A DNA stretch of 64,000 nt, taken from Ardenticatenaceae bacterium (GTDB taxonomy: Bacteria; Chloroflexota; Anaerolineae; Promineifilales; Promineifilaceae). Below, piece by piece: positions 25,611-46,780 of this stretch (the stretch's first letter is position 1; the number at the start of each line of letters is the position of its first letter). The stretch is from the NCBI GenBank assembly GCA_020634315.1, contig JACKBV010000002.1:165286-229285 (forward strand), given 5' to 3'. The position numbers and the translations under genes are program-made. The notes under the pieces were generated by a model. It made no database searches. It saw only the letters and a list, made by a program, of their open reading frames with translations, and was not told the DNA's origin.

Positions 25611-26705
25611 ATGGGGCAAAAAACGGTAGACAATGCCATACAGTTTTACCAGCAAGTGCTGCGCCATGCTGCATGGGGTACGCTCATGGTTGATGCCGTT
25701 GGTCGCATTGCCTTTGCCGATGCGATGGCCGCCCGCATGCTGAAATTGAGCGAAATGGAGTTGATCGGGCAGCCCATCCACCGTTTTTTACCAGATGTAT
25801 CGTTTGTGCCTGTACAAATGTCGTCATACTGTGAAGCATTGTTGCAGGCTGATAACGGCCGTTCCTGTCCCGTTTTGTTATCTATTAAACCTATGGCAGC
25901 CGCACCCGCCGGATATAAATTGGTGTCTATGATGAATCTGACGGATATGACTCAAATAAACGATGCGTTGTTTCATACCCAGCGTCTGGCCGGTGTTGGC
26001 ACATTGACCGCCAGTGTCGCTCATGAATTGACCAATCCCTTGAGCATTATCACTGCAACTTGCAGCAACTTAATACACGAAGTGAACAACGAGAATGTGG
26101 ATGCGGAAACGCTGCTCCATTACATTCGCATGATTGAACACAGCGCCTGGCGCAGCGCCCGTATTGTCGAGGTCTTGCGACATTATACGCACGACAATGG
26201 CTTGAATACGGCCGTTACCAATCTCAACATGATCATCGAGGATGCACTGACCCTCATCCGCCCCCAATTCCTAAAAGAGCACAAAGTCAAAATCGAGACC
26301 GACCTCGATCCCAATCTCAAGTCTATTGTTTGCGATCACAATCGGCTGACCCAGGTGCTCATCAATTTGCTGGCAAATGCGCGTGATGCCATGCAGCCGC
26401 AGGGCGGCGTTATTCACATTCGCTCGTGGGCCATTCAGGTAGACCCGCTCTACACAAACGGCAAAGGGCAGGTTGAAGGGGACAAATTTGCCTTTTCCGT
26501 GCGCGATAACGGCCCAGGCATCCCCCCTTCCATCATGTCACAGATTTTTGAGCCATTTTTTACCACCAAGCCCAGTGGCACAGGCACCGGATTAGGGTTG
26601 TTTATTGCCAAGGGGATTGTTGAGGAGCATAACGGCCGTATCTGGGCCGAAAACAATCATGACGGCGGCGCGACCTTCACCGCCATCTTGCCACAAAAAC
26701 AGTGA
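25611..26705 (+). CDS. Cytoplasmic PAS-domain sensor histidine kinase
   Basis: PAS-like N-terminus. H-box ASVAHELTNPLSII. N-box INLLANARDAM. G-boxes DNGPGIP and GTGLGLFIAKGIV. Confidence 0.8.
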   Translation: MGQKTVDNAIQFYQQVLRHAAWGTLMVDAVGRIAFADAMAARMLKLSEMELIGQPIHRFLPDVSFVPVQMSSYCEALLQADNGRSCPVLLSIKPMAAAPAGYKLVSMMNLTDMTQINDALFHTQRLAGVGTLTASVAHELTNPLSIITATCSNLIHEVNNENVDAETLLHYIRMIEHSAWRSARIVEVLRHYTHDNGLNTAVTNLNMIIEDALTLIRPQFLKEHKVKIETDLDPNLKSIVCDHNRLTQVLINLLANARDAMQPQGGVIHIRSWAIQVDPLYTNGKGQVEGDKFAFSVRDNGPGIPPSIMSQIFEPFFTTKPSGTGTGLGLFIAKGIVEEHNGRIWAENNHDGGATFTAILPQKQ

Positions 26706-26771
26706 TCGGCCACCGGCCACCGGCCACCGCCTACCGATCACCGCCTACCGATCACCGATCACCGACCACAC
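26706..26771. repeat. Heptanucleotide tandem repeat array (GGCCACC x3, then GCCTACC/GATCACC units; about 9 units) filling the whole spacer between two convergent stop codons
   Basis: Directly read. On the minus strand it is (CGGTGRN)n, starting right after the pdxT stop. Confidence 0.7.
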
Positions 26772-27374
26772 CTACCGGTCACTTCCCGCAACCAACTGCA
26801 AAAAATATTGATGAAAACGCGCGTCATGCGTCAATTCCGGGTGGAAGGAGGTGACGAGCCATTTGCCTTGCTGCGCGGCAACGGCCGTACCGTCATCCAG
26901 CGTCGCAATCACCCTGGCCTTACCCTTCGCCGCCACCAAACGCGGCGCACGAATAAACACCGCCGGAAACGGGCTGCCATTGCCATTGTGAAAAACAGCC
27001 ACATTTAACCCCGTCTCAAAGCTGTCCACCTGCCGCCCAAAAGCATTGCGCTCCACTTCAATGTCCATGATGCCCAACAGCGGTTGGTCACGGCCGGCCG
27101 AGCCATTGCCAATCTCCTTAGCCATAAAAATCATCCCGGCACACGTACCCCACATCGCCTTTTCGGCCGCAAACTGGCGCAGCGGTTCCATCAGATCATA
27201 CATCACAGCCAGTTTGCCAATGGTCGTGCTTTCCCCACCAGGGATAATCAGGCCATCCAGGTCTTGCAAATCCTGCAGCAAACGCACCTCTACCGCTTCC
27301 ACGCCTAAGCCGCGCAGCATCTTGATATGCTCGATAAATGCCCCTTGCAGGGCTAAAACCCCTATTTTCATCAT
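26772..27374 (-). CDS. pdxT: Pyridoxal 5'-phosphate synthase glutaminase subunit
   Basis: MKIGVLALQGAFIEHIKML, catalytic GTCAGMIFMAK, HPELT. Confidence 0.85.
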   Translation of the reverse strand: MMKIGVLALQGAFIEHIKMLRGLGVEAVEVRLLQDLQDLDGLIIPGGESTTIGKLAVMYDLMEPLRQFAAEKAMWGTCAGMIFMAKEIGNGSAGRDQPLLGIMDIEVERNAFGRQVDSFETGLNVAVFHNGNGSPFPAVFIRAPRLVAAKGKARVIATLDDGTAVAAQQGKWLVTSFHPELTHDARFHQYFLQLVAGSDR

Positions 27375-27379
27375 CTACC

Positions 27380-27823
27380 CTACAGCTTTTTGATAAAACA
27401 AATTTGTCGCTCGACTTCTTCGTACCCTAGCGCCAGATGGCCCGCCAGACTGACAACGTTGTCAAGTTGCGTATCTGAGGCGATTTCGTGATAGCCGTGC
27501 TGTCTGGCCCATGCTTCGGCAGCGGCGACCAGCGCCCGACCAACGCCCTGACGGCGATAGTCGGCATCGACATGCCACCCTTCCAGATAGGCTACGGGCG
27601 AGGTTGTGCAGCCTTCGGCGTATTTGCGGATGCCGACTTCGATAAAACCAGCCAATCCGCCAAACGGCCGTTCCGCCACAAACACCCCATTCTCCGCCGG
27701 AGCCGCCAGGATTGCTGCCATCTCTTCCTGCTGCCCAGCGACATCCTCATCACCAAACAGCGCCAGCCGCATCCGCAGCCATTCAGCCGCATCCCGCTCA
27801 GAGTCCAACAAACGCACAACCAT
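27380..27823 (-). CDS. GNAT-family N-acetyltransferase (AAC(6')-like)
   Basis: Acetyl-CoA binding RRQGVGRALVAAAEAWARQHG. Lies between pdxS and pdxT with 5-bp and about 60-bp gaps. Start at MVVRLL; the longer ORF begins at 27862. Confidence 0.7.
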   Translation of the reverse strand: MVVRLLDSERDAAEWLRMRLALFGDEDVAGQQEEMAAILAAPAENGVFVAERPFGGLAGFIEVGIRKYAEGCTTSPVAYLEGWHVDADYRRQGVGRALVAAAEAWARQHGYHEIASDTQLDNVVSLAGHLALGYEEVERQICFIKKL

Positions 27824-27883
27824 CTTACACACGCATAAGAGTGAAGAGCAGCCGCTCTCCACTCTCCCATTTGCGCCGCGACT

Positions 27884-28801
27884 TTACCAGCCGCGTACCG
27901 CCAATTGTTCTTTCTCGTCCAGGCTGCTGACGTTAATGCCAACCATTGGCTCGCCCAAATTCTCGCTGACCTTCGCCAAAATCTCTGGGTTGTTGTAATG
28001 CGTTGTCGCTTGCACAATCGCCTTTGCCCGTTGCGCCGGATCGCCGCTCTTGAAAATACCGGAGCCGACAAAGACGCCATCCACGCCGATTTGCATCATC
28101 AAAGCGGCATCGGCTGGGGTAGCAATGCCACCAGCCGCAAAATTAACGACCGGCAGGCGTCCCAATTCCTTCGTCTCGCGCACCAGGGCATAGGGCGCAC
28201 CGATATTTTTGGCATAGGCCATCAACTCTTCATCGGGCATCAATTGCAGGTGGCGAATCTCGCCCAATACGGCACGCGCATGGCGCACTGCTTCCACCAC
28301 GTCGCCGGTGCCCGCTTCGCCCTTTGTGCGAATCATGGCTGCGCCTTCGCCAATGCGCCGCAGCGCCTCGCCCAAATTGCGGCAGCCACAGACAAATGGA
28401 ACCTTAAATGGATGTTTGTAAATGTGATGTTCTTCGTCGGCTGGGGTGAGCACTTCGCTCTCGTCGATGTAATCGACGCCAATCGCTTCCAAAATTTGCG
28501 CTTCAACAAAATGACCAATACGCGCCTTGGCCATGACCGGGATGCTAACCGATTGAATGATTTCCTTGATCATGCCGGGGTCTGACATGCGTGCCACGCC
28601 ACCTTGCACGCGAATGTCCGCAGGGACGCGTTCGAGGGCCATGACCGCAACGGCGCCTGCTTCTTCTGCAATTTGCGCCTGCTCTGGCGTCACGACGTCC
28701 ATGATCACGCCGCCTTTCAGCATTTGCGCCAAGCCTACTTTTACCTTGAAGCTGCCAACTTCACCATGTCCATTGGATTCGGCCGTTCCATTCTTGCTCA
28801 T
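27884..28801 (-). CDS. pdxS: Pyridoxal 5'-phosphate synthase lyase subunit
   Basis: [40 protein letters not shown]. Near full-length identity pattern to PdxS/SNZ. Confidence 0.9.
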
Positions 28802-29339
28802 TTCGTCACACTCCTTGTACGGTAGTTATTAATCGTTATAAAGCGATTGTAGAGGCTGGGAAAAGGCAAAGCAAGCAAATTGGCTCTATCAACTCAGATG
28901 AAATTGCTTTCTATGCATACCATTTTTGCGTTGGTGGGAAACAGGAAAATGCGCAGATAGGCCATGAGTCCCCTACTAGCTGCCCCTATCCACTGTTACA
29001 ATACAGATGGAACTATCTACAAATTACTTTGCTCTTGAACTTCTTCCCCCAGCACCTTACCTTAACGAAAAAAGCCGTTATCACATTATGATGCAAGCGC
29101 CACTTCCAGGCGAAAGCGGATGTTTTTGCACAACAGGACATCCTATAACGTGGTAAATGGTTTATGGGGGATGCAGCAATTAACGACAGATTATGCTCAT
29201 GAACTGGCCTATCTTCATTGCACTTATCTTGATATATATCTGGTCACTGCTGCCTTTTAATCAGCCTGATCAAAACAAGACCATGTAGGGGGCGGGAAGC
29301 CTTTTTGCATGTTGTTTGGCGGTTACGGCCGTTTCCCTG

Positions 29340-30107
29340 CTACCACTTCTCCAGCACGAGTAAATGAGATAACCCCAACACCGCAAACGGCGTTTGCTCC
29401 GCCGCATACAGCACATTTTTGATCAACTTCCCCAAACCCGGCAACCGATTTTCAATATTGTCATAGCCGCCAAAAATGACACCATGATGCACCTTGCGCA
29501 CCGGCAGTCCGGCAAATAAGCGCAGCAATCCGCGCTTTGTGTATGCGCGTACATGTGGCGCAAGCCGATTACGCAGCGGATTGGGCAAATAATTGACCAA
29601 CGGCTTGTTGCCAAAATAATACTCGCCACGCCAGTAAATGCCGTGCTGCTCCACCGGATACCACCGATTGGGGCAAAAAATGAGAATACGCCCTCCTGGC
29701 CTGGTCACACGCACCATTTCGGCCGCATACAGGCCATCATCCGTGACATGCTCGATCACCTCATTGCTAAACACAAAATCAAACGTATTGGCAGCAAAGG
29801 GTAACGTTTCGCCCACGCCTAAAGCGACGCCTGCCCCCGTTTGCCGCGCCACCACAGCACGATCTTGCTCCACATCCAGACCAAAACAGTGAGGCGTATA
29901 GGTGTGAAAGGCATCCAGCCATGTTCCCAGACCACACCCATTGTCGAAAACAGTGGCATTCTCTAGCGGCACCCATTGGCGCACCATCTTTAACCGCCGC
30001 TCTTGCCCAGAGCGCCACACATAACCTGGTTCGCCGCGCAGAGCGGCCTTATCTGAATAGCTCAATTTTTTACTGCTCCCGATTTGCGCGACAAACAGCC
30101 AGTCCAA
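29340..30107 (-). CDS. Class I SAM-dependent methyltransferase (methyltransferase type 11-like)
   Basis: Motif I VFDNGCGLGTW; post-I acidic FGLDV; motif II/III LIFCPNRW. Confidence 0.7.
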   Translation of the reverse strand: MDWLFVAQIGSSKKLSYSDKAALRGEPGYVWRSGQERRLKMVRQWVPLENATVFDNGCGLGTWLDAFHTYTPHCFGLDVEQDRAVVARQTGAGVALGVGETLPFAANTFDFVFSNEVIEHVTDDGLYAAEMVRVTRPGGRILIFCPNRWYPVEQHGIYWRGEYYFGNKPLVNYLPNPLRNRLAPHVRAYTKRGLLRLFAGLPVRKVHHGVIFGGYDNIENRLPGLGKLIKNVLYAAEQTPFAVLGLSHLLVLEKW

Positions 30108-30978: not shown

Positions 30979-31172
30979 GATGGTCACTCCTCTAAAAAAC
31001 GTAACGCGACCAGAGAATCGCGCCACAGACATCATTCACACAGTCACGAAAATTTTACCGTAAAATGGATGGGGATAAAAACGGCCGTTTCCCCCAAACC
31101 TATGCTACAATTTTTCCCATGACGCACACCACCCCGCGCCGCACAGCATAAAACTTCCCAAGGAGCAACCCC

Positions 31173-32863: not shown

Positions 32864-34216
32864 TTGCACTTCATGATAATCCGTAATCGACGAATCCTTT
32901 GCACACTTATGGCGCTGGTCTGGTTGTTCACGGCTTGCCAGACAGCGCCGACAGTTGAAGAAGAAGTTGGGGTGGCAACGGCCGTTTCCACCCCAACACA
33001 GCCCCCCACAACCACACCCCAACCCTCTTCCACGCCCACCCCTGATGTACAAATCATCATTACCACAACTCCGACAGCGACAGTAAACAGTGCGCCAACG
33101 CCCCCCTCTCTCGATTATCTGGCAGCCGCCATCAACGCCGAACTCGCCAACTTCGATGGCCTGAGCAGCTATGTCATCCGCGACCTGCGCACAGGCGAAC
33201 AAATCAGCCACGAACCCGACCTTGCCATTGCCGGCATGAGCCTGATCAAAATCCCCATCCTCATCAACACCTATCGCGTGCTGGATGGCCCACCCGACAT
33301 TGAGCAAACCAAGCTCATCACCCAAACCACCGCCCTTTCCAGCAACTTTGCCGCCAATTTGCTGCTGCAAGTCATCGCTCGCCAGCCCAACAGCTACATT
33401 GGCGCTGACATTGTCACCGAGTCGATGCGCGAACTGGGCCTTTACAACACATTTATGGCTGTGCCCTACGACGCCGAACCCAAGCCAGATCGTCCGCAAA
33501 CTTACCTCACGCCAGCCAACCGGCGCACCGACATGACCACCCATCCAGACATCTACCGCCAGACCACAACTGGCGACCTGGCAGCACTGCTGCTGATGCT
33601 TTATGACTGCGCCACAAACAGCCAGGGGCTGCTGCTGGACACCTATCCTGGCGAACTAACAGCAGGCGAGTGCCAGCAAATTCTCGACATGCTCCAGCTT
33701 AATGAATTGGTGAAATTACTGGAAGCGGGTTTGCCCCCCGGCATCACCATCGCCCACAAAATTGGCTATATCGACGACACCTATGGCGATGCCGCGATTG
33801 TCTACTCGCCCAATGGTGATTACATCCTGGTTTTGGCTCTCTACGCCCCCGTCTGGCTGGAATGGGGCATTGCTTCCCCCCTTTTCACAAGCATCTCGCA
33901 GCTTGTCTATAACCATTTCAACGACCCGGACGCCTACACAACGGCCGTTCTCGCTGCCCCACCTGATTTGCCACCCACCGTCACCCCGGCACCCACGCCC
34001 GATTTGCCACAAGCCATTGTCACCGGAACCAACGGCGTTGGCTTGACACTGCGCAGTGCGCCCGGTGGAGCCGAACTCGCCATCTTGCCCGAAGGCAGCG
34101 TGGTCAGTTTGCTCGACACGCCGCCAAACACGCTCAACGGCATTACCTGGCAGCACATCCGCACCGCGGATGGCACAACTGGCTGGGTTGGCGCGGATTA
34201 TCTGACGGGGCAGTAG
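32864..34216 (+). CDS. Lipoprotein serine hydrolase of the class-A beta-lactamase-like fold with a C-terminal SH3b-like domain
   Basis: Lipobox LFTACQ. SxxK in IAGMSLIKIPIL. C-terminal GVGLTLRSAPGG ... WVGADYLTGQ. Confidence 0.6.
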   Translation: MHFMIIRNRRILCTLMALVWLFTACQTAPTVEEEVGVATAVSTPTQPPTTTPQPSSTPTPDVQIIITTTPTATVNSAPTPPSLDYLAAAINAELANFDGLSSYVIRDLRTGEQISHEPDLAIAGMSLIKIPILINTYRVLDGPPDIEQTKLITQTTALSSNFAANLLLQVIARQPNSYIGADIVTESMRELGLYNTFMAVPYDAEPKPDRPQTYLTPANRRTDMTTHPDIYRQTTTGDLAALLLMLYDCATNSQGLLLDTYPGELTAGECQQILDMLQLNELVKLLEAGLPPGITIAHKIGYIDDTYGDAAIVYSPNGDYILVLALYAPVWLEWGIASPLFTSISQLVYNHFNDPDAYTTAVLAAPPDLPPTVTPAPTPDLPQAIVTGTNGVGLTLRSAPGGAELAILPEGSVVSLLDTPPNTLNGITWQHIRTADGTTGWVGADYLTGQ

Positions 34217-34258
34217 TCGGTGGGCGGTGGGCGGTGAGCGGTAATCGGTAAGCGGTGG
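34217..34258. repeat. Heptanucleotide tandem repeat array (CGGTGGG CGGTGGG CGGTGAG CGGTAAT CGGTAAG CGGTGGC) exactly filling the spacer between convergent stop codons
   Basis: Directly read. Same CGGTRRN family as 26706-26771, in mRNA-sense orientation of the upstream plus-strand gene. Confidence 0.7.
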
Positions 34259-34759
34259 CTAGCCGATTTCGGCCAGCACTTCATCGCGCAGCACGCTTTG
34301 GTTGGTGCTGACATGAACGGCCGTTACCACACCACCGCGTGGCGAGCGGATTTCATTCTCCATCTTCATCGCTTCCAGCACCAACAACGGCTGCCCGGCC
34401 ATCACCGTCTCGCCAGCCTGCACCAACACCTGTGTCACCAACCCTGGGATGGGTGCTTTGACGCGCCCGTCACGGCTGCGCGGACGCGCCACAGCCGCCT
34501 CTAAGTCGCGCACTTCCAAGTTGTGCAAGCCGCTGTATGTTTTAATCCAGCGCAACTGCTCGTCAAAGACAATTTCGTAGGGACGGCCGTTTACAATCAT
34601 CCAATCAATATTCGCCACTGAATGATTCGGGGGCGGAACTTGCACCGACAAGGGCACGCCATCTACCAGCACGGTAACGGCCGTTCCATTCCAATGCATC
34701 ACATCCAACGCTACCTCAAACAACTGCTCTTCAATCGTTACCAATAACTTATTCATCAT
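34259..34759 (-). CDS. Biotin carboxyl carrier protein (biotinyl domain) of acyl-CoA carboxylase
   Basis: GQPLLVLEAMKMENEIRSP biotinylation motif (AMKM). GAGGAGG Shine-Dalgarno before ATGATG at 34759/34756. Confidence 0.8.
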   Translation of the reverse strand: MMNKLLVTIEEQLFEVALDVMHWNGTAVTVLVDGVPLSVQVPPPNHSVANIDWMIVNGRPYEIVFDEQLRWIKTYSGLHNLEVRDLEAAVARPRSRDGRVKAPIPGLVTQVLVQAGETVMAGQPLLVLEAMKMENEIRSPRGGVVTAVHVSTNQSVLRDEVLAEIG

Positions 34760-34766
34760 CCCCTCC

Positions 34767-36248
34767 TCACGACGCCAGCCGCCGACTGGCACGATGCCAG
34801 CCCGACTGCGTCCGTGGCGACACCGTTGGGCTTTCCGGCGCATTGCGGCGCAAATACAAAATTGCCGCTATCGCCGCCAGATCACGCAAATGCTCTTGCA
34901 AATCCACAAATTCACCCAACGGCTGCCGCAGCAAATCCGTCGTATACGCCCCTTTGATAAACGCCGACGACGTAAAAACACGCTGCAACACAGGCAAATT
35001 CGTCGCCAACCCGGTCAATTTCAAACCTTCCAACGCCCGCTGCATTCGCTGCAAACAAAGCTGCCGGTCAGCGCCCCACACCGACAATTTGGCAAGCAGC
35101 GGGTCATACGTATCAGGAACCCGACAGCCACAATACACATATGTGTCTACGCGAATCTCTGGCCCGCCCGGCAAACGCATCATGTCCACCTGTCCGGGGC
35201 TGGGCAAGAAATGGTTCCAGGGGTCTTCCGCGTTGATCCGGCACAGCATCGCCCAGCCTTGCGGTTGCACATCCTGCTGCGTCCATCCCAATGGCTCCCC
35301 GGCAGCAATGCGAATTTGCTCGCGCACCAGGTCCAGGCGCGTCACCAATTCTGTCAATGGATGCTCCACCTGAATCCGCGCTTTAATTTCAGTAAAGTAA
35401 AATTGCCCGGCTTCATCGACGAGGAATTCAACGGTTCCGGCATTTTGATAATTAAAGAGACGGGCAATGGCAACGGCCGTTTCACACAACACATGCCGCT
35501 GCTCCGGCGTCAAACTCGGCGAAGGCGTTTCCTCCACCACCTTGCGATTCCCCAGCACCAACGACCCCTCCCGGTCGCCCAAATGCACCAGATTCCCTTG
35601 CCCATCCCCCAACACCTGCACCGCCACCTGATGTGCCGGTAAAATCGCCCTTTCCAGATACACCTCTTGGCTGCCAAAAACCACACGCGATTCCGCCTGC
35701 GCCCGCTGCATCGCCCGCAGCAATTGCTGCGGCGAACGCGCCAGCCGTTCCCCTGGCCCACGCCCGCCATTACACGACTTAATCACCAGCGGATATTCCA
35801 ATTCACCCGCCGCCGCACGCAGCGCCGCCAAATCATCAACACCAAACGAAATCGGCGAACTCATCACCGTAGGAAAGCCAGCGGCGCGTACCGTTGACAA
35901 AGCCGCCAATTTATCGCGCACACCTTGCACAACCTCCACCGGTGGGCCAATAAAAGCCAGCCCCGCCATCTGGCAAGCACGAATAAAACCCACATCTTCC
36001 GCCAGAAAACCATAACCGGGATGGATGGCATCCGCGCCACAGCGCTGCGCCAGCTCAATGATCGCCGCGCCATCCAAGAAACCTTCATCGCTCACCAGTT
36101 CCACACATTCATCCGCCAGGCGCACATGCAATGATTGCTGATCGGCCGCTTCATACACAGCAACGGCCGTAATCCCCATTTCACGGCACGTATGCACAAT
36201 CCGCACCGCAATTTCCCCCCGATTGGCAATGAGTATCTTCTTAAACAT
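34767..36248 (-). CDS. accC: Biotin carboxylase subunit of acetyl/propionyl-CoA carboxylase
   Basis: MFKKILIANRGEIAVRI ATP-grasp N-terminus. Stand-alone biotin-carboxylase length of about 490 aa. Confidence 0.9.
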   Translation of the reverse strand: MFKKILIANRGEIAVRIVHTCREMGITAVAVYEAADQQSLHVRLADECVELVSDEGFLDGAAIIELAQRCGADAIHPGYGFLAEDVGFIRACQMAGLAFIGPPVEVVQGVRDKLAALSTVRAAGFPTVMSSPISFGVDDLAALRAAAGELEYPLVIKSCNGGRGPGERLARSPQQLLRAMQRAQAESRVVFGSQEVYLERAILPAHQVAVQVLGDGQGNLVHLGDREGSLVLGNRKVVEETPSPSLTPEQRHVLCETAVAIARLFNYQNAGTVEFLVDEAGQFYFTEIKARIQVEHPLTELVTRLDLVREQIRIAAGEPLGWTQQDVQPQGWAMLCRINAEDPWNHFLPSPGQVDMMRLPGGPEIRVDTYVYCGCRVPDTYDPLLAKLSVWGADRQLCLQRMQRALEGLKLTGLATNLPVLQRVFTSSAFIKGAYTTDLLRQPLGEFVDLQEHLRDLAAIAAILYLRRNAPESPTVSPRTQSGWHRASRRLAS

Positions 36249-37990: not shown

Positions 37991-38686
37991 CTAAGCTGCC
38001 AGCGTCAGGACAAATCCATCCAGAACACGCCACCACCCTTGCAGCGGCGGCGCAACCCGTAAACGGCTGGCGTCTAACTCGATGGCAAACGGCGTCCACG
38101 CTTGTGGTGGTACGGCCGTTACCGCAAACAAACACGTCACACAACGCGTATCAACCATCAACCCAACCTGCAACGCCTTCAACGCCGCTTCCTTCGCACT
38201 CCAAATCGCCGTCACCAGCGTCGCCTGCATCTCCGGCACAGCTTGCTGCACCAAGTCCTGCTCCACCGCCGTAAAATAATCCTGCACAAACTGCGGCGAA
38301 CGCGGCGCAATTTGCTCAATATCCGCGCCAATCGGCGGATTGCGCCGCGGCAGCGCCGCGCAAAATGCATGGCTGTTTGAATGACTGATGGAAATGCTCG
38401 GCAGGTCAGCCCGTGCCACAGCGCCACATTGTACCACCGGAGCATGGGTATGACCGTTCAACACCTGCAACTCCGCCAACGGAACCTCGGTGCCACAGCG
38501 CTCGCGAAGCACCTGTTGCAGCAAATGCTTTGCCGTCCAACGCCCTAACAACCAATCCCGCCGCCGCTTTTCTGTGCGCAATCGGGCAAAATGTGCCGCC
38601 TCTGCCGCTCCCAGCAATCCTGCCGGGGGCATGCCCTGCGCCAACCCTGGAAACGCTGCTGCCGTTTGTACAAGCCAGTTGATCAT
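37991..38686 (-). CDS. Sfp-type 4'-phosphopantetheinyl transferase
   Basis: GADIEQI (G-x-D-x-E), FTAVEQD ... WSAKEAALKAL (W..KE...K motif). Immediately downstream of the PKS. Confidence 0.8.
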   Translation of the reverse strand: MINWLVQTAAAFPGLAQGMPPAGLLGAAEAAHFARLRTEKRRRDWLLGRWTAKHLLQQVLRERCGTEVPLAELQVLNGHTHAPVVQCGAVARADLPSISISHSNSHAFCAALPRRNPPIGADIEQIAPRSPQFVQDYFTAVEQDLVQQAVPEMQATLVTAIWSAKEAALKALQVGLMVDTRCVTCLFAVTAVPPQAWTPFAIELDASRLRVAPPLQGWWRVLDGFVLTLAA

Positions 38687-38758
38687 ATGCCTTGTATTCC
38701 ATGTCCCGTAATCGGCAACCGATGACCCGATTACCGATTACGGATTATCAATTGCCGC
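38687..38758 (-). other. Structured PKS-PPTase intercistronic spacer: CGGTAAT heptamer repeats plus a 10-bp inverted repeat CCGTAATCGG...CCGATTACGG
   Basis: Minus-strand RNA reads AUAAUCCGUAAUCGGUAAUCGGGUCAUCGGUUGCCGAUUACGGG. Confidence 0.45.
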
Positions 38759-41700
38759 TCACGACAGCGGTCGTGCCACCGTGCGATAACCTTGCAGTTC
38801 AACAAACACCACGCCATCGTCGTCGACAACCTGCCCGGCAAAAGTCTCGCCATCGTCGTCTGTGCGCAGCAGCGCGTAAAGACGTTTGCCGGCCGCCTCT
38901 TGTGGCTGTCGCTGCGCCGTGACCGCGCCAATGCCCAAGGGGAAACCCATTGCCTGCTTTACTTCTTGCGTCCACAACGCCGCCGCCTGGAAACAAAGTT
39001 CTACCAATCGCGGAGCCATTAACGAAGTGGCATCTGCCGGGTCGGTATTGGGCGGCAAGGTGGCAGGCAGCAAGCAAACGGCCGTTTCCCCCACCACCTT
39101 TGCGCGTTCAATCACCTGATACGCCGGGCCATGAAAGAAAGATTCGTAAATCGTCTCCGCCACAATCGGCAGCGATTCCGCCGCCGGTGGCGTGAAGGCA
39201 ATCGTTGGCGCTGCCATGGCCGCCGTGCCCAAATGCACCTGCGCCGCAAAATGCTGCTGCGTTCGCTGCGGCAGCCCGTCGCGCACCGGTTTGGTGACGG
39301 AATGCAGCGTTGTTTGCGCCAACAACTGCCCCGGCGCAGGCAGTTCCAGCACAACATTCAGGTGCAGTGTGCGCGGTTCATTGCGGAAAAACTTGAATGC
39401 GCCGGACATGGTGACATCGGTAACGGCCGTTACCCGTCCCTCAGGCATCGCGGCCAACGACGCCGCCACCAACGCGGCCTGCGCCATCGCCTCCGTCGCC
39501 ATCACCCCTGGCAGCCAAGGCGTGCCCGCATCGGGGGCGTGGTCATACAAAAAGGGTTGGCGCGTCGGGTCAAGCGTCGTTTCCACCGCCAATCCACCGT
39601 ACAACATCGCCCCTTGCAACGTGCCCACCATCAGCAAATCGCCAAACTTCTCTTGCCGCCACGCATTGGCCTGCGCCACATCCAAACCACCCGTCTCATC
39701 CCATTCCTGTGTCAACAGGCCCAGCGCACCGCCAACTACCAGTTCGCCGCCGCCATACAGCAGTTCGCGCCGCACAGTGGGAATTCCCACCGCCGTTGGC
39801 AGCATTTCGATGCCTGCCATCTCCATAATCTTGGGAATCGAGCCACGCGTCGCCATGCCAATTTCGCCCCAGGCTGTCCAGTCCAGAGCAATGCCGCGCG
39901 TCTCCGGCCGCCAGCGGCGCAGGCTGCTTGTCACCTTGCACAGCAAATCATTGGCCGCGCTGTAATCCGTCTGCCCATTGTTGCCAAAACGCCCGGCCAC
40001 CGAGCTAAAAACGACGGTCGCGGCGATAGGCAGATCGTGTGCCGCACGCAGCAAATTGAAGAAGCCATCCGCCTTCACATCAAACACAAGGTCGAATTCG
40101 CGTGCCTCTTTTTTGTCCAACGACCGGCTGATTTCCAGCCCGCCAGCATGAACGAGGGCGTCTATTTTGCCATAGCGAGTGCGGATGTCGGCGATAACGG
40201 CCGTTACCGCTTCCCCATCCAACAAATTAACGCTGTGATAATGAGCCGTACCGCCAGCCGCTTCCACCGCCTCAATCGCCCGCAGCGCCGCTTCCGTCCG
40301 CTCGATTGCCAATAACTGTTTCTCAATCAGCGCCGGTGTGGGCCGTTCGCCAGCTGCTTTAGCCGCCGCAATCAACTGCTGCTTCAACGCCTCTTTGTCG
40401 CTGCGGAACAACTGCACCTGCGCGTCATGCCGCGTCGGCGCGGCAACCAGGTCAAGCAGGTAAAAGATGCCGCCGCTGGCTGCTGCCAGGTCGGCAACGA
40501 TGGCGCTGGTGATGCCGCCAGCCGCCCCGGTGACGACAAAAACCGTGTGCTCATCGAGCGTCAGCGCCGGGGTGTCGGGCAACGGCCGTTCCTGCAAACC
40601 AATCGCCACCCGCTGCTCGCCCACATAGCCCACTTCCACCGCACCGGGGTCTGTTTCCGTCTCGGCCAACAGCGCATCCGCGAAAACGGCCGTTTTCCGA
40701 CTCAGTTCAAAGTCCACAGCCTTCACCAACACATCAGGGCGCTCACGCTTGTACGCCTTGGCAAAGCCAACCACAGCCCCGCCCAAAGGAGCCGTTGCCC
40801 CTGCCGCGCCATAGCCATGCTGCCCGCCCAGGCGCGTAGCCGTCACCAGGAACGTGCCCGGCTGGTTCACCACGTCATACAAAGCCCGCATGGTGGCATA
40901 CAAATTCTTGCTGCGCTGACGATTCAATTCGCGCCAGGCGGCCAGGTCAAGCTCCATCAAATCAGGCTCCGCATCCAACGCCGCCAGCCAATACACCCCT
41001 TGAATCGCGCCAGCATGACGCCACGCAGTCACCTGTGTCACCAACTCCGCCGTTGGCCGCGCCACATCCAAAGCCAACACAGTCGCCCCACGCTTTTCCA
41101 GGCGGCTGATCACGGCCTTGCCGACACCGCCCTGGTCGAGAGCCACAAGCACGCGGCTGTCCGCGCCCAACGTGACCCCCGTCGGTTTACACCAGGCCAA
41201 CGCCGGTCGCAGCACGGCCACCGGCATACGCCGCGGCACACGATTGGCATTTTCCAGGGAAGACGGGGTGATGCGGGTTGAAGCAGGCACAACGCCCGCC
41301 ACTTCCCCCATCACCCCGTCAACTTTTAAATCCGGACGCATTTCGTAAACAAAACCAATCACCTTTTCCAGCGTCGTGTAATCGCGCAAAGCCAAATCGT
41401 CGCGGCGCGGAATGTCAAACTCGCTGCGAATGGCGGCAAATGTTTCTGCCTGTTTCACCGTGTCAATGCCCAGGTCTGCTTCCAAATCCAGGTCTAGCTC
41501 CAACATATCAGGCGGATAACCCGTTTGCTTGGCGACAATTTCCAGCACTTTGGCGGTCACTGCGTCAAATGAACCCGCGTCGGGCGTGGATGGCAGTGTG
41601 GCAACGGCCGTTTCGCTCACCACCTCCGGTTCAGCCGCCACTTTTTGATTGCCCAAATCGGGGCGCATCTCGTAGACAAAGCCAATCACCTTCTCCAGTG

Positions 41701-44700
41701 TGGCATAATCGCGCAATGACAAATCATCGCGGCGCGGAATGTCAAACTCGCTGCGAATGGCGGCAAAGGTTTCCGCCTGTTTCACCGTGTCAATGCCCAA
41801 ATCCGCTTCCAGGTCGAGGTCAAGATCGAGCATATCGGTGGGATAGCCGGTTTGCTCGGCCACAATTTGCAGCACTTTGTCGGCAACGGGATCAGCCACG
41901 GCCGTTTCCAGGGTTGGCTCCGGCAGCGGTGCTGGCGGGGGCGGCGCAGAGGGAACGGCCGTTTCTGCCACCACCTTTTCCACAACCGGCATACGCACCG
42001 GCTCTGGGGCAACGGCCATCGGCGCGGCTTGCACTGGCGGCTCCGGAATAACCATCCGCGCAGGCGCGGTTGTGGGCGTTGGCGCCCCATCCTGCCCCGT
42101 CAAAGTGCGCATGATGGGGCCAGTTCCCGGCTGCCAGCGGCTGGGGAGCGGGTACCGCTGCGGCACGCCGTTGGCCTGGATGCGTAAGATGCGTTTGTTA
42201 ACGGCCGTTTCCACCTGGTCATAGCCGCTGATGTCCTCCAGCCAGCGCCGATATTGCGCCGGACTGTCCACCCGATCCAGTGCGCCAGGGATGCGCCGCG
42301 TCAACGTCATCGCAATTTGTGAACCAAAACCCGCCGCCAGATGCAGCGCATACTGCACCGGATAACGTCCGCCGCGGCTCAAGTTCAACGGCCCCAGGTC
42401 TGGGTCAACTTCCCGGAAATTGGGCACAGGCGGCACAATGCCATATTCCAAAATCTTCACGGCAATGACATCTTCCACACCGACACCCATTGGATGGCCG
42501 GTAAACCCTTTCGTATTGGCGACAATGATTTCACGCGCCACGTCGCCAAACGTGTGGCGCAGCGCTTCCACTTCGGCGGCAGCGCTGCCACCGCGTGCCG
42601 GTGTGTATGTCTCGTGCGACATAAAGACCATCTGCGGAGCCATGGCCTGCCGGTTCAAGCCAAAACGGCGCTCGGCCGATGTCACCAGGCTGTTCATCAC
42701 CTGGGCGATGTGGTGTACGTCCAGACGCGTGCCATGAAATGCGCTGTTGTTTGTTTCACTGGCAAGCAGTTCGACAACGCCGCGCATCCCGCGTTCGCGC
42801 ATGGCATCTTCGCTCTCCACAATCAGCCCCGCCGCGCCCATGCCCATCAACGTGCCATGACGGCGACGATCAAAGGGCAAGGCGACTTCGGCGACACGAT
42901 CTTCGGTCGCTGCCGCACCAACGGCCAGGAAACCGGCACCGACCCATTCCATCAAGTTGTCTCCGGTCACATTGTCGGCGGCAATGATGATGACGCGGCG
43001 GCAACGGCCGTTGCGAATCCAATCTTCAGCAATCGCCACCGCCTGCGCCGTGCTGGCACAAGCCGCATTCACCTGCGTATTGGGGCCGCGTGCGCCGATG
43101 TACTCGGCAAACTGGCTGTGTCCCATTGCCAGGATACGGAACAAAAAGCGGCGATCAAAAATGTATGGCTCGCGCTGCAACGCCTCGCGCAAAGTGTTGA
43201 TGCGCCGATCTAGTTCGCGCAGCGTGTCGGCGTCGCGGGTATAGGCACGCACATCTTGCAGCATTTGCAGTTGATCAAGCCGGTTTTGGAAGGTGAAATA
43301 GCGCCCCATTTCCTCGGCAAAGCGGTCGCCGCCGGGGAAGGCGCTGGCAAAAATGACGCCCGTTTCATCGCGCAATGGTTCTGGCAGCAGCCAGCGATCC
43401 GGCAAAAATTTGTCGGTGGTGGTGCGGCGGAAGGTTTGCACGAGAGGGATACCCGCCTCGCGCAGGGCGTCAAAACCGGCGGCCATTGCCAACTGCGTCG
43501 TGCTGTCCAGCGCCTCGACGAGTTTTTCTGGCACGCCGTACTCTTCGGTTAAGTTGAAATAGCCGGGGCGACCTGCCAACTTGATGACATCGTCGGGGTC
43601 GTTAATGGTCTCGAAACGGCCGTTTCCCTCTGCATCCTTCACCAGGCGCGTGATTTGCTTGGCTAAAATGCGCTGGCGAAAGCGCTCCGGAATCAGGTCT
43701 ACAAACTGCTCGCCGCGCAAAATCCGCAGCGCATTATCCGGGTCCATCACCGATTTTTCCGCGCCGGGCAGCCCCAACCCCGTGCCGCTGATAACCACCG
43801 AGCCGCTGGGGACGGCATTGCGGTCATAGGCCAGCAGTGGCGGCTGCACAGCAGGTGCTTGCGCCGTCGCCGCTTGCTGAATTGCTTGCGTCAATAATTC
43901 GACAACGGCCGTTAACGAGCCGCCATTTTGTGATAAAGCCATGTCCTCATTCCTCTCTACTGATTCGACCAACACCGCTGCCTGCTCGCCGACTGTTTGC
44001 CCATATCCCGCCGCATACAGCGCACATAACGCCATATTCAAACTCGGCAAAGTCCCCGTCTTGGGGTGATTGGTCAAAATCGGCAGCACATCCGTTTGCG
44101 CGGCAAACACATCACGGGCAAACCCTTGCAGCGCCCGCTTGGGGCCAACCTCGACAAAGGCACGCACGCCAGCGTTGTAGAGCGTGTGCAGCCCCTTCAC
44201 CCATTGCACCGGCGAGGCAACTTGCTGTTGCAGCACATCCTTAATGCCCTCCACCGTTGTCGGGTAAAAGCCGCCAGTCAAATTGGCAACAAGCGGCAGT
44301 TTGGGGGGAGCGATGTGCAGCCGGTCAAGTACCTGGCGCAGGGGTTTGCTGGCCGGAGCGACAATTTCTGTGTGGAAGGCGTGGCTGACGGGGATGGGAA
44401 TGGCGCGGTATCCTTTTTCGGTGAACAGTTTAACGGCCGTATCCACCGCTTTACTCGCCCCACCAATCACACTCTGGCTGTGACTGTTAATATTGGCAGG
44501 AACAACATAGCCATCCACCTCGGCTAACGTTGCTTCCACCACATCCAATGGGGCGAGAATGGCCGCCATACGGCCGTTATCCGCCACATTGACCTTGCTC
44601 ATCTCATCGCCACGCGCGGCCGCCGCTTCCAGCGCATCGGCAAATGGCATCACGCCCGCGGCAATCAGCGCCGCATATTCGCCCAGCGAATGCCCCATCA

Positions 44701-46780
44701 CCATGTCCGGCTTAAAGCCATACGTCTCCAGCAATTTCAACATGGCAATGTCCAGCGTCAACATCGCTGGCTGCGTGATTTCCGTCTGCATCAAAGCCAG
44801 TTCCGCCTGCATCATCGCCTGGCGGTCATCGCTGTCCACAAAAATGTAATCGGTGAGCGGCTTGCCCAAAATCGGCGTCATGACGCGGTCGGCCTCGGCA
44901 AACACCGTGGCGACCACCGGCGACAAGGCCACCAGCTCGCGCCCCATATTCACATACTGGCTGCCCTGTCCGGGGAAAAGAAAGGCTAACTTGCCCGGTG
45001 CGGTGCCACGCCCACGAAAAATGCCTTGCGCCTCCAGCGCTTTCCACGCTTTGGCATCGTCGCTCTGGCAAAGGCGCTGCGCTTTTTGCAGCCGTCCCAG
45101 CAGTTCCTCGCGGTCGCCAAAATCAATCAGCAAGCGTTCGGGGGATTGGAGAACGGCCGTTTCCGGCACAACTCGCGGCGGCGTCCAGCCAGCCTGCACA
45201 TCTCGCAGCGCCTTCTCCACCTGCGCCCGCAGGTCAGTGGATGAGGCGGCACCCAACGCCAAAATACCGCGCACAGGTGTTGGCACCTTATCCGCAGCAC
45301 GTTGGCTCCCGACCTGTAAATTTCCATTTCCCCGTGCCTGCGCCGCCGTCGTTTGGCGCTGCGCGGCCAACATCCCCGGCACATGTTCCTCCAACACGAC
45401 GTGAAAATTCGTGCCGCCAAAGCCATAGGCACTGACACCACAGCGGCGCGGTGCGCCAGCCGGTTTTGTCCAGGGCGTAGCCTCGTGAACGAGGTAAAAA
45501 GGTGTGTTGGCAAAATCAATGTTGGGATTGGGCACGGCCGCATTTAACGTGGGCGGCAGCGTCTTGTGGTACAACGCATACACCGCTTTCAGCAGCCCGG
45601 CAGCGCCTGCGCCTGCTTTCAAATGGCCGATGTTGCTCTTGGCCGAACCGAGGCCAATGCTGTGGCGTGGCGCGGCATGGAAAATTTGCGCCAGACTTTC
45701 GACTTCGACCACATCGCCGACGCGGGTGCTGGTTCCGTGCGCTTCCACCAGGGTCGCCGTTGCCGGGTCCAGCCCGGCGCTTTCCCAGGCACGTTGAATG
45801 GCAAGCTGCTGCCCCAACGGATTGGGCGCGGTGATGCCTTTGCCTTTGCCGTCGCTGGCGCCACCAACGCCGCGAATGACGGCGTAAATGCGGTCGCCAT
45901 CTCGTTCGGCGTCAGCCAATCGTTTTAGCAAAAAGGCGGCGGCCCCTTCGCCCATGACAAACCCGTCTGCGCCATCGCTAAACGGCCGTGTTCCGGTCGC
46001 GCTCAATGCGCCAATTTTGCAAAATTTGACGAAGCTGGAGATGCCCATGTTGCGGTCGACGCCACCGGTAACGGCCGTATCCACCTTATGCTCCGTCAGC
46101 AGTTCAATGGCCGCTTCCAACGCCGCCAGGCTCGAAGCACAGGCAGCATCCGTGATGAAATTCGGGCCGCGCAAATCCAGCACATTCGCCACACGCCCGG
46201 AAACGATGTTGGGCAGTTCGCCCGGCATAGAATCTTCAGTGATGGGCGGGAAGACATCGGCAATGACACCCTGATACCCACTGAGAATGGCCTGGCGCGT
46301 GGCGGCAGGCAGTCCGGCAAATTCGGGCACGCTTTCCAGGGCGTGCGCATATTCGGGAAAAGCAATGCGCTGATTGGTGATGTAGTGGAGTTCGCCCCCC
46401 ATAGCCGTGCCCAAGATAACGGCCGTTCGTTCCGTGTTTAACGGCTTTTGCGGATACCCATAATCGGCCAACGCCTCCGCCGCAACCGTGAGCGCCCACT
46501 GCTGCCCCATATCCATCGCGTCCGCCACCTTTGGCGGAATGCGGAAACGCTTCCAGTCAAAATTAAACCCGCGCACCCAACCACCAATTTTGCTGTATGT
46601 TTTGTCTGGCGCTTTGGGGTCAGGATCATAATAATCGGCAATCGACCAGCGGTTTGGCGGCGTCTCGGTAATGCTGTACCGCTTATTGACAATATTTTGC
46701 CAAAACGCCGCCGCGTGCAAAGCATCTGGCAAAATGGCTCCCACCCCGACAATGGCAATCGCGCGTTCTGCACTATCCAT
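38759..46780 (-). CDS. PUFA-synthase/PfaA-like iterative type I polyketide synthase. Inferred domain order: KS - AT - second KS-like - ACP - ACP - KR - DH (2673 aa).
   Basis: KS1 DAACASSL / EAHGTST / KSNIGHL. AT GHSLGE / AFHT. KS2 [14 protein letters not shown] / SHETYT / KGFTGHPMG. Two about 85-aa carrier-like repeats (...[23 protein letters not shown]). KR Rossmann plus YSAAN. PKS-type [24 protein letters not shown] Shine-Dalgarno before ATG 46780. Confidence 0.9.

What the first reader, a model, noticed from the sequence alone, without database searches (positions are those of the whole stretch)
26706..26771. STRR-like heptamer tandem arrays (CGGTRRN)n that exactly fill the spacers between stop codons
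Three arrays of 7-bp tandem units sit immediately 3' of stop codons in mRNA-sense orientation:
- 26706-26771: about 9 units, GGCCACC x3 then GCCTACC/GATCACC. It fills the entire gap between the convergent histidine kinase and pdxT stops.
- 34217-34258: 6 units, CGGTGGG CGGTGGG CGGTGAG CGGTAAT CGGTAAG CGGTGGC. It fills the entire gap between the serine hydrolase and BCCP stops.
- 38700-38745: CGGTAAT CGGTAAT CGGGTCAT ... in the PKS-PPTase spacer.

Heptameric intergenic tandem repeats placed this way recall the STRR elements of filamentous cyanobacteria, and they co-occur here with a HIP-like palindrome. They are G-rich on one strand, so G-quadruplex potential is possible. They may act as terminators, mRNA 3'-end stabilisers or recombination hotspots.
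Basis: seen in the sequence. Interest (0 to 1): 0.7.

Follow-up and report, generated by a model that had tools for sequence, protein, structure and literature searches.

The report
Seven-base repeat arrays at gene ends
Three short runs of a 7-base repeat (CGGTRRN) fill the gaps after genes in an uncultured filamentous Chloroflexota bacterium; they are real and non-random, but they are a new example of an already described kind of bacterial repeat whose function is still unknown.

Summary
Arrays of CGGTRRN sit at 26709-26777 (- strand), 34211-34259 (+) and 38705-38744 (-). The two-unit pattern gives 12 matches against 0.09 expected. Arrays 1 and 2 fill the 66- and 42-bp gaps between convergent genes and overlap the stop codons. 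Array 3 is really an inverted pair of CGGTAAT units that forms an 18-bp hairpin.

The host is an Ardenticatenaceae MAG (Chloroflexota). Relatives carry heptamer arrays with other units in equivalent spacers. One relative has ordinary hairpins there instead.

(CGGTRRN)n≥4 occurs in more than 118 genome stretches across many phyla. It is about 77% intergenic and often comes as inverted pairs. Its G-rich 5' end often abuts the stop of a real gene.

The arrays are identical in a 98.9%-identical strain, so they are not hypervariable. G-quadruplex potential is weak and U-tracts are not enriched.

Best reading: these are STRR-like heptanucleotide simple-sequence repeats. They grow by local duplication and are tolerated only in 3' and inter-cistronic spacers. 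Two of the three arrays here fold into RNA stem-loops, and array 1's is followed by a run of five U. This is a known class in a new unit family and lineage, of moderate interest.

The parts
26709..26777 (-). Array 1, G-rich strand. CGGTAGG (26777-26771) carries the pdxT stop TAG at 26774-26772. It is followed by a degenerate TGTGGT and then 8 exact CGGTRRN units (26764-26709).
   Evidence: ORF ends. There are stops in all 3 frames on this strand and none on the + strand.
26700..26709 (+). A single inverted unit, CAGTGATCGG, that contains the histidine-kinase stop TGA (26703-26705). It forms the 3' foot of the array-1 hairpin on the - strand.
   Evidence: CAGTGA also ends the HK gene in relative L002, so it predates the array.
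26695..26763 (-). Predicted RNA hairpin of the pdxT-sense transcript (26763-26701), followed by UUUUU (26699-26695). It looks like an intrinsic terminator for the pdxS-GNAT-pdxT operon.
   Evidence: MFE -49.8 kcal/mol, z -5.85, against -24.4 (z -3.3) for the other strand. One search lists a small terminator-like site at 26715-26700(-).
34211..34259 (+). Array 2. CaGTAGT carries the hydrolase stop TAG at 34214-16. It is followed by CGGTGGG x2, CGGTGAG, CGGTAAT, CGGTAAG and CGGTGGC. The last base overlaps the BCCP stop (34259-61, - strand).
   Evidence: No significant fold on either strand (z 0.30 and -0.85). The C-rich strand is 55% C and 14% G.
38705..38744 (-). Array 3. An inverted pair of CGGTAAT-type units forms a fully paired (Watson-Crick plus G.U) 18-bp RNA hairpin. 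It lies in the 72-nt spacer between the PKS stop (38759-61) and the PPTase start (38686).
   Evidence: -33.5 kcal/mol, z -4.8 on the - strand, against -19, z -1.4 on the + strand. No U-run follows. The only change in strain L123 is in the loop.
25611..26705 (+). PAS/HisKA/HATPase_c histidine kinase. Its stop abuts array 1.
26772..27374 (-). pdxT (SNO glutaminase). It has two extra C-terminal codons (Asp-Arg) compared with relatives, and then a TAG supplied by the array.
32864..34216 (+). Serine hydrolase (Beta-lactamase2 + SH3_3). Its stop lies inside the first, degenerate unit of array 2.
34259..34843 (-). Biotin carboxyl carrier-like protein, the last gene of the PKS-PPTase-CT-BC-BCCP gene run on the - strand.
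37991..46780 (-). PKS (38759-46780) and 4'-phosphopantetheinyl transferase (37991-38686), which flank array 3.

Best explanation
The three arrays are heptanucleotide simple-sequence repeats of one unit family, CGGTRRN. This is the class known as STRR in cyanobacteria and as 'long SSRs' more generally.

**Inferred origin.** Arrays grow by local tandem duplication (replication slippage) of 7-nt units and then decay by point mutation, mostly A/G transitions. Because 7 is not a multiple of 3, arrays survive only outside coding sequence. In this compact genome they have expanded until they occupy whole 3' or inter-cistronic spacers and touch the flanking stop codons.

**Shown properties of the unit.**
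- TRR is TGA, TAG, TAA or TGG. A run of units therefore puts stops in all three frames on the G-rich strand, while the C-rich strand is fully open.
- The CCGG formed at unit junctions, together with G.U wobble pairs, makes the G-rich RNA self-complementary. For (CGGUGGC)n, 6 of 7 positions pair.

**Inferred consequences at each site.**
- Array 1 gives the pdxS-GNAT-pdxT transcript a long hairpin followed by U5, which would act as an intrinsic terminator.
- Array 3 gives an 18-bp stem-loop between PKS and PPTase. It could be a barrier to 3' decay or a partial terminator.
- Array 2 has no significant structure and is probably just tolerated.

I regard any function as local and opportunistic, not as the reason the family exists.
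For: - **Reality and non-randomness:**
- **Exact gap filling and overlap of the stops:**
- **Local duplication:** adjacent units are more alike than units in shuffled order (177 differences against 205.5±8.4; 1 of 2000 shuffles as low). Array 1 also contains a (GAT AGG)x2 14-mer.
- **Exclusion from coding sequence:** all 3 window arrays lie in the ~8% of the window that is non-coding. Of 137 arrays that could be classified, 106 are intergenic, although only ~11% of the sampled DNA is intergenic.
- **Period conserved, sequence not:**
  - L001, L125, L126 and L062 have heptamer arrays with other units in equivalent spacers: CAGTATT, TTAGCTA, AAGGATG, AACCTGT, GGAGATT.
  - L002, which has the same gene order as the window here, has plain hairpins in the same two gaps.
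- **Stop and fold properties:**
- **Precedents:** heptamers are the commonest long SSR in prokaryotes, and polymerase slippage has been proposed (Mrazek 2007, as summarised in PMC4679880 and PMC4692102). G-rich heptamers lie within 50 bp of the stop on the coding strand, some overlapping the stop (PMC4692102). Chloroflexus aurantiacus has 22 (GATAGRA)n satellites (PMC6749651).
Against: - Pure slippage does not explain why the same CGGT core recurs at three independent loci within 12 kb, or in many phyla.
- It does not explain why inverted pairs are so strongly 'G-rich arm first': 17 to 0 in the genome sample.
- The arrays are identical in a strain that is 1.1% diverged. Slippage is therefore slow, or the arrays are constrained. 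With only ~156 nt compared, this is not statistically decisive.
- No transcript data exist for this MAG, so the terminator and stem-loop roles are inferred from folding only.
- The genome-wide census for this genome could not be done.
Confidence: 0.6

Rival explanations
1. The arrays are selected RNA 3'-end modules. When transcribed, the G-rich strand folds into stem-loops that terminate transcription or block 3' exonucleases. The C-rich strand, read by the opposite gene, is an unstructured C>G tract that loads Rho. Each array would then act as a bidirectional end signal with built-in stops in all frames.
For: - Array 1: hairpin of -49.8 kcal/mol (z -5.85) followed by U5. Array 3: 18-bp hairpin (z -4.8). 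Both are much weaker on the other strand.
- The orthologous gaps in L002 and L001 hold ordinary terminator-type hairpins of similar length, so the arrays sit where terminators are expected.
- C-rich strands: 52% C and 18% G for array 1; 55% C and 14% G for array 2.
- Across phyla the arrays commonly come as inverted pairs that would form long stems.
- Divergent (promoter) spacers are depleted: 10 arrays against 28 in convergent and 68 in co-directional spacers.
Against: - Array 2 has no significant fold.
- T-runs after arrays are not enriched: 15% and 14% against an 11.6% background.
- Inverted array pairs sit inside a ribosomal-protein operon, right after rplC and rplB in L018. A real terminator there would be harmful.
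- The sequence is not conserved between species.
- There is no Rfam match.
- Whether this organism has Rho, and uses it here, was not tested.
Confidence: 0.2
2. The arrays are tandem binding sites for a sequence-specific nucleic-acid-binding protein that recognises the CGGT core at 7-nt spacing. This is the post-transcriptional or nucleoid network idea that MacGregor proposed for TAACTGA repeats.
For: - Within units the CGGT core is constant while the last three positions vary.
- The same family occurs at several loci per genome and in many phyla.
- The arrays are identical between strains.
- The model is discussed in PMC4679880.
Against: - No candidate protein is known.
- The flanking genes are functionally unrelated: PLP synthase, a histidine kinase, a hydrolase, and ACC/PKS genes.
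- Orthologous spacers in relatives use other heptamers or none.
- The constancy of CGGT is partly built into my search pattern.
Confidence: 0.1
3. The arrays are the arms, or decayed remnants, of a small mobile or copy-spreading hairpin element (REP/BIME- or MITE-like) with a fixed architecture: 5'-(CGGTRRN)n - loop - (NYYACCG)m-3'. Such an element would have spread within and between phyla.
For: - In the genome sample, 17 of 17 neighbouring opposite-strand arrays are G-arm first (p = 1.5e-5). The architecture recurs in Chloroflexota, Gemmatimonadota, Saprospiraceae and Acidobacteriota.
- Array 3 has this form.
- Array 1 has a one-unit opposite arm.
Against: - Loops are unrelated in sequence and range from 7 to 133 nt.
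- Arm lengths vary, and no target-site duplications or defined ends were seen.
- True C-arm-first pairs do exist: 29 metagenome stretches, about 20 of them distinct.
- Arrays 1 and 2 lack a real second arm.
- No associated transposase or RAYT gene was looked for or seen.
Confidence: 0.1
4. The arrays are G-quadruplex-forming elements, like the GGGAATC and GGGGAYT repeats of Xanthomonas and Nostoc.
For: - One strand is G-rich.
- Two-tetrad (G2) patterns are present in arrays 1 and 2.
- Array 2 reaches a G4Hunter score of 1.32 in its best 25-nt window.
- Their placement near stops on the coding strand matches PMC4692102.
Against: - No array has four G3 tracts.
- Mean G4Hunter scores are 0.68, 1.02 and 0.35, at or below usual thresholds.
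- Many units (GAT, AAT, AAG) break the G-runs.
- There is no preference for four units here; the arrays have 8 and 6 exact units.
Confidence: 0.05
5. The arrays are hypermutable contingency loci or recombination hotspots whose copy number varies between strains.
For: Tandem repeats are classic slippage substrates. Array 1 has three identical consecutive units.
Against: - All three arrays are identical in L121. That strain is 98.86% identical over 20.9 kb and has 14 indels elsewhere in the aligned 20.9 kb.
- Array 3 has the same length in L123, which is 98.4% identical.
- The neighbouring genes are housekeeping genes, not surface genes.
Confidence: 0.03

Closest known systems
Cyanobacterial STRR elements (short tandemly repeated repetitive sequences; Mazel et al. 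1990, from my own knowledge; cited as ref. 39 in PMC4692102)
   Same: Tandem heptanucleotide units. Intergenic. Several arrays per genome. A filamentous host. Co-occurrence with a highly iterated octamer palindrome. Function unknown.
   Different: The unit is CGGTRRN, not CCCCAGT, TTGGTCA or CAACAGT. The host is Chloroflexota (Ardenticatenaceae), not a heterocystous cyanobacterium. The palindrome is ACGGCCGT, not HIP1. Genome-wide copy number is not known.
G-rich heptamer repeats GGGAATC (Xanthomonas) and GGGGAYT (Nostoc), Rehm et al. 2015 (PMC4692102)
   Same: Heptameric with one G-rich strand. Depleted in coding regions and in divergent spacers. [quoted passage not shown] Inverted copies can form stem-loops. 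Not linked to surface or virulence genes.
   Different: There is no G3/G4 tract, so no canonical quadruplex. There is no preference for four units. The units here carry stop triplets, and GGGAATC does not.
TAACTGA direct repeats of marine Beggiatoaceae, cyanobacteria and Bacteroidetes, MacGregor 2015 (PMC4679880)
   Same: An intergenic heptamer family shared across distant, mostly filamentous lineages. It occurs even inside ribosomal-protein operons. The unit contains stop triplets.
   Different: The TAACTGA sets lie mostly just upstream of start codons. The arrays here lie at stop codons or 3' ends. The sequences are unrelated.
Heptanucleotide 'long simple sequence repeats' of prokaryotes (Mrazek et al. 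2007, as summarised in PMC4679880 and PMC4692102), Chloroflexus (GATAGRA)n satellites (PMC6749651) and Geobacter (GGACCGG)4 elements (PMC2700814)
   Same: These define the general class: 7-nt tandem repeats over-represented in non-coding DNA of scattered lineages, with a precedent inside Chloroflexota.
   Different: This is a new unit family. The arrays are shorter and more degenerate than typical VNTR-like satellites.
REP/BIME elements and intrinsic terminators (functional analogues)
   Same: They are intergenic. They form hairpins in the transcript at gene ends or between cistrons. Array 1 has a stem plus a U-run.
   Different: The stems here are built from tandem 7-nt units and G.U pairs. 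There is no conserved REP consensus and no RAYT link was shown. U-tracts are not generally present.

Membership tests
Heptanucleotide long SSR (Mrazek-type LSSR) | Head-to-tail copies of a 5-11 nt unit, in arrays longer than chance allows | tested here: met
   TRF period 7/14/21 at all three sites. 12 matches against 0.09 expected.
Heptanucleotide long SSR (Mrazek-type LSSR) | Bias to non-coding DNA for units that are not a multiple of 3 | tested here: met
   3 of 3 window arrays lie in ~8% non-coding DNA. 106 of 137 arrays in the cross-genome sample are intergenic, against ~11% intergenic DNA.
Heptanucleotide long SSR (Mrazek-type LSSR) | Growth by local duplication or slippage | tested here: met
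   Adjacent units are more alike than units in shuffled order (1 of 2000 shuffles as low). However, there is no copy-number difference between 98.4-98.9%-identical strains.
Cyanobacterial STRR | Tandem heptamer unit, intergenic | tested here: met
Cyanobacterial STRR | Unit sequence is STRR1 CCCCAGT, STRR2 TTGGTCA or STRR3 CAACAGT (from my own knowledge) | tested here: not met
   The units are CGGTGGC, CGGTGAT, CGGTAGG, CGGTAAT and similar.
Cyanobacterial STRR | Host is a (heterocystous) cyanobacterium | tested here: not met
   The flanking protein is 100% identical to one from an Ardenticatenaceae MAG in Chloroflexota.
Cyanobacterial STRR | High copy number dispersed over the genome | not testable with these tools
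   Only 64 kb of this genome is held. It has 3 arrays, all within 12 kb.
G4-forming heptamer repeats (Rehm 2015) | Four or more G3+ tracts per array; quadruplex formation | tested here: not met
   There is no G3+ quadruplex pattern in any array. Mean G4Hunter scores are 0.35-1.02.
G4-forming heptamer repeats (Rehm 2015) | [quoted passage not shown] | tested here: met
   Window arrays. Across the sample, a long sense open frame ends within -25..+10 nt of the G-rich 5' end in 64 of 154 arrays. An opposite-strand frame ends that close to the 3' end in 8 of 154. Of 16 sampled ORFs whose stop lies 0-10 nt before an array, 13 have Pfam domains. Divergent spacers hold 10 arrays against 68 co-directional and 28 convergent.
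Intrinsic (Rho-independent) terminator | Stable GC-rich hairpin immediately followed by a U-tract | tested here: inconclusive
   Met for array 1 on the - strand. Not met for arrays 2 and 3. Not enriched across the family.
REP/BIME or MITE-like mobile hairpin element | Conserved element sequence with defined ends or target duplications, and an associated transposase (RAYT or IS) | tested here: inconclusive
   The inverted-arm architecture recurs. However, loops are unrelated and no defined ends were seen. An associated transposase was not tested. C-first pairs also exist.
Known structured RNA families (Rfam) | Match to a curated covariance model | tested here: not met
   0 matches at E<=1 over 26000-39500.

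The most novel reading that the evidence does not exclude
CGGTRRN arrays may not be independent slippage products. They may be the arms of a cross-phylum family of hairpin-forming intergenic elements with a fixed polarity: the G-rich arm, which carries stops in all frames, comes first on both strands. The elements would spread between loci and lineages (Chloroflexota, Gemmatimonadota, Saprospiraceae, Acidobacteriota, cyanobacteria). They would serve as portable 'stop-plus-stem-loop' modules, or as sites for a conserved binding protein or a repeat-generating enzyme. If so, the long-standing puzzle of why 7-nt repeats proliferate in scattered, often filamentous bacteria would have a specific molecular cause.
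Probability: 0.15. Interest if true: 0.65.

Novelty: new member of a known kind. Interest (0 to 1): 0.35.

Why it matters
Heptamer repeats have been known in cyanobacteria since 1990 and in Xanthomonas, Beggiatoaceae, Geobacter and Chloroflexus since then. Neither their origin nor their function is understood.

This case adds three things:
- **A new lineage.** Ardenticatenaceae carry a cyanobacteria-like pairing of features: an iterated octamer palindrome together with heptamer arrays.
- **A wider distribution.** One unit family, CGGTRRN, is shared by many phyla.
- **Two simple sequence properties.** Stops in all frames on one strand, and G.U-mediated self-pairing of the same strand. These explain why such arrays sit flush against stop codons and fold on only one strand.

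It does not open a new kind of system. The host is uncultured, so it does not make the open question easier to test.

Tried and rejected
- **HIP1 (GCGATCGC):** 0 hits. The iterated palindrome is ACGGCCGT instead.
- **Rfam:** an E-value scan of 26000-39500 found nothing.
- **Canonical G-quadruplex:** no G3 tracts.
- **Copy-number polymorphism:** none in L121 or L123.
  - An exact-flank scan of JGI metagenomes for length variants of array 1 found nothing.
  - Contig L124 ends before the array.
- **Exact look-up of pdxT:** not on record. The 334-kb source contig could not be fetched, so no genome-wide census was possible.
- **General terminator role:** T-runs are not enriched.
- **Selection for stop-bearing units:** RR usage is even (AA 247, GG 200, AG 191, GA 175). 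The all-frame stops are a built-in property of TRR and are not evidence of selection.
- **Absolute 'G-arm-first' polarity:** rejected. The metagenome scan found 29 stretches, about 20 distinct, with C-arm-first pairs. Viral contigs gave 1 against 0, which is uninformative.
- **ORFs that end inside arrays:** mostly spurious frames. Only 3 of 14 have Pfam domains. I counted only stops lying 0-10 nt upstream of an array as reliable.
- **Obligatory link between the palindrome and heptamer arrays:** rejected. L002 has the palindrome (20 copies in 15 kb) but no heptamer array.

Full report
**1. The observation**

Tandem Repeats Finder reports period 7/14/21 at 26710-26782, 34213-34256 and 38718-38747. 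The two-unit pattern CGGTRRNCGGTRR matches 12 times in the window, all inside arrays 1 and 2. Shuffles give 0.09 on average and never reach 12.

- **Array 1**, read on the - strand: CGGTAGG, a degenerate TGTGGT, then CGGTGAT x2, CGGTAGG, CGGTGAT, CGGTAGG and CGGTGGC x3.
- **Array 2**, read on the + strand: CaGTAGT, then CGGTGGG x2, CGGTGAG, CGGTAAT, CGGTAAG and CGGTGGC.

The ORF map and Pfam confirm the flanking genes. These are a PAS/HisKA/HATPase_c kinase, pdxT, a Beta-lactamase2+SH3 hydrolase, a biotin-carrier protein, a 2673-aa PKS and a PPTase. The convergent gaps of 66 and 42 bp are filled completely.

The arrays in fact overlap the stops.
- The pdxT TAG is inside a CGGTAGG unit. pdxT also has two extra codons (Asp-Arg) compared with relatives.
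- The hydrolase TAG is inside CaGTAGT.
- The kinase TGA is inside one inverted unit, CaGTGAT.

Array 3 is better described as an inverted pair of CGGTAAT-type units than as a tandem run.

**2. Host and relatives**

The hydrolase is 100% identical to a protein of an Ardenticatenaceae MAG (Chloroflexota), on a 334-kb contig.

| Locus | Relation to the window | What the equivalent spacers hold |
|---|---|---|
| L121 (GCA_041390925.1) | second MAG, 98.86% identical over 20.9 kb, 14 indels elsewhere in the aligned 20.9 kb | all three arrays base-for-base identical |
| L123 | third strain, 98.4% identical | array 3 at the same length, one loop substitution |
| L002 | same gene order, hydrolase 74% identical | ordinary hairpins in both gaps, no heptamer array in 15 kb |
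| L001, L125, L126, L062 | more distant relatives | heptamer arrays with other units in many spacers: CAGTATT/TACTGAA, TTAGCTA, AAGGATG, ATTGCTA, AACCTGT, GGAGATT/AATCTCC |

The arrays are therefore real, since they recur in independent assemblies, and they are not hypervariable. In this family the 7-nt period is conserved but the repeat sequence is not.

**3. The CGGTRRN family elsewhere**

The hosts include:
- Chloroflexota (Anaerolineae, Ardenticatenaceae, Ca. Leptofilum, Thermomicrobiales)
- Gemmatimonadota
- Saprospiraceae
- Acidobacteriota
- cyanobacteria (Microcoleus, Spirulina)
- gamma-proteobacteria, which carry long perfect CGGTAAG arrays

I analysed 154 arrays of at least 3 units with a crude ORF model.
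- **Location.** 106 arrays are intergenic, 31 lie in ORFs and 17 are at locus edges. Only about 11% of the DNA is intergenic. Divergent spacers are depleted: 10 arrays, against 68 in co-directional and 28 in convergent spacers.
- **Polarity relative to genes.** A long sense open frame ends within -25..+10 nt of the G-rich 5' end in 64 of 154 arrays. An opposite-strand frame ends that close to the 3' end in only 8 of 154.
- **Are those frames real genes?** I scanned 30 random ones against Pfam. Of the 16 whose stop lies 0-10 nt before the array, 13 have domains, including L2, L3, RecA, KAS, ZapA and LysR. Of the 14 whose stop lies inside the array, only 3 do. This matches the rule reported for GGGAATC and GGGGAYT repeats (PMC4692102).
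- **Inverted pairs.** Arrays often come as 5'-(CGGTRRN)n-loop-(NYYACCG)m-3'. In this sample 17 pairs are G-arm first and none is C-arm first (p = 1.5e-5). A metagenome scan did find 29 stretches of true C-first pairs. The polarity is therefore strong but not absolute, and its cause is unexplained.

**4. Properties that follow from the unit**

TRR is TGA, TAG, TAA or TGG.
- In arrays 1 and 2 the G-rich strand has stops in all three frames. The C-rich strand has no stop inside the array.
- Across the sample, 102 of 154 arrays have stops in all three frames on the G-rich strand. None has a stop on the C-rich strand.
- RR usage is even. This is a built-in property of the unit, not evidence of selection.
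- It does explain why an upstream gene always ends flush with the array.

Unit junctions create CCGG. With U.G wobbles, (CGGUGGC)n pairs with itself at 6 of 7 positions. The complementary strand pairs at only 4 of 7.

| Array | G-rich strand as RNA | Opposite strand | What follows the stem |
|---|---|---|---|
| 1 | -49.8 kcal/mol, z -5.85 | -24.4, z -3.3 | UUUUU |
| 3 | 18-bp hairpin, -33.5, z -4.8 | -19, z -1.4 | no U-run |
| 2 | z 0.30, unstructured | z -0.85, unstructured | not applicable |

One search also lists a small terminator-like site in array 1. Across the family, T-runs after arrays are not enriched: 15% against an 11.6% background. Array pairs also occur inside a ribosomal-protein operon (L018). 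A general terminator function is therefore unlikely.

**5. Other tests**

- No array has a canonical G-quadruplex motif, and G4Hunter means are 0.35-1.02.
- There is no Rfam match.
- Adjacent units are more alike than units in shuffled order (1 of 2000 shuffles as low), which is the signature of local duplication.
- The C-rich strands are 52-55% C and 14-18% G. That composition is compatible with a Rho-loading tract, but this was not tested.

**6. Interpretation**

The best-supported reading is that these are heptanucleotide simple-sequence repeats of a known class (PMC4679880, PMC4692102, PMC6749651, PMC2700814). They grow by local duplication and are confined by frame constraints to 3' and inter-cistronic spacers, which they have filled completely here.

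Array 1 (hairpin plus U5 at the end of the pdxS-GNAT-pdxT operon) and array 3 (stem-loop between PKS and PPTase) plausibly act on the transcript. That step is inferred from folding only.

What slippage alone does not explain is the recurrence of one CGGT-core family at several loci and in many phyla, and the polarity of the inverted pairs. Those two points keep alive the binding-site and mobile-hairpin alternatives.

**7. Verdict**

This is a new unit family and a new lineage of a known kind of repeat. The arrays are not members of the STRR families proper, not quadruplex elements and not contingency loci. Interest is moderate.

Noticed in passing
whole window (e.g. 26632-26639, 26881-26888, 34317-34324); also L001 and L002: The octamer palindrome ACGGCCGT occurs 100 times in 64 kb against 1.4 expected, mostly inside genes. 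This is a HIP1-like highly iterated palindrome in a Chloroflexota genome. It is also present in relatives: 30 copies in 20 kb of L001 and 20 in 15 kb of L002. L002 has no heptamer arrays, so the two features are not strictly coupled. I found no literature on it in the searchable library.
   Followed up: partly
L018 1294-1379 and 3278-3375 (Thermomicrobiales MAG): Inverted pairs of (CGGTAGC)n arrays sit immediately after the stops of ribosomal protein genes rplC (L3) and rplB (L2). That places them inside what is normally one long ribosomal-protein operon. The loop of the second pair holds its own small hairpin plus a T-run.
   Followed up: partly
L001 12153-12205, 13783-13832, 15322-15375, 4096-4165 (Ardenticatenaceae MAG GCA_020634275.1): Almost every intergenic spacer of this relative holds heptamer (or 8-mer) arrays with AT-richer units. 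Some form inverted pairs, such as (CAGTATT)3...(TACTGAA)3. AAGGATG recurs in a spacer next to the same glycosyltransferase gene in L125.
   Followed up: partly
window 26772-26780: pdxT carries two extra C-terminal codons (GAC CGG, Asp-Arg) compared with three relatives, and then stops at a TAG that belongs to a heptamer unit. The array appears to have captured the end of the gene.
   Followed up: yes
window 56956-57047: A purine-rich (GGAGAGAGG/GAAGAGG) imperfect repeat of about 90 bp with periods of 11-44. It begins where my crude ORF model places a gene start, next to a divergent spacer. Its nature was not examined.
   Followed up: no
window 7259-7344 and 7404-7467; 55067-55116: 18-bp tandem repeats (GCGGCTATGCCTGGGTTG and relatives, about 3-5 copies). 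They are probably coding 6-residue repeats. They were not examined.
   Followed up: no
whole window: GC skew is negative in almost every 4-kb bin (down to -0.18), and most genes between 26.7 and 55 kb are on the - strand. This fits one replication arm with co-oriented genes.
   Followed up: no
L153 918-1066 (metagenome contig Ga0310811_10325069): A C-arm-first heptamer pair is embedded in a longer palindrome: the 40 bp on each side, all that I printed, are exact reverse complements of each other. It is either a large natural palindrome or a fold-back assembly artefact.
   Followed up: no
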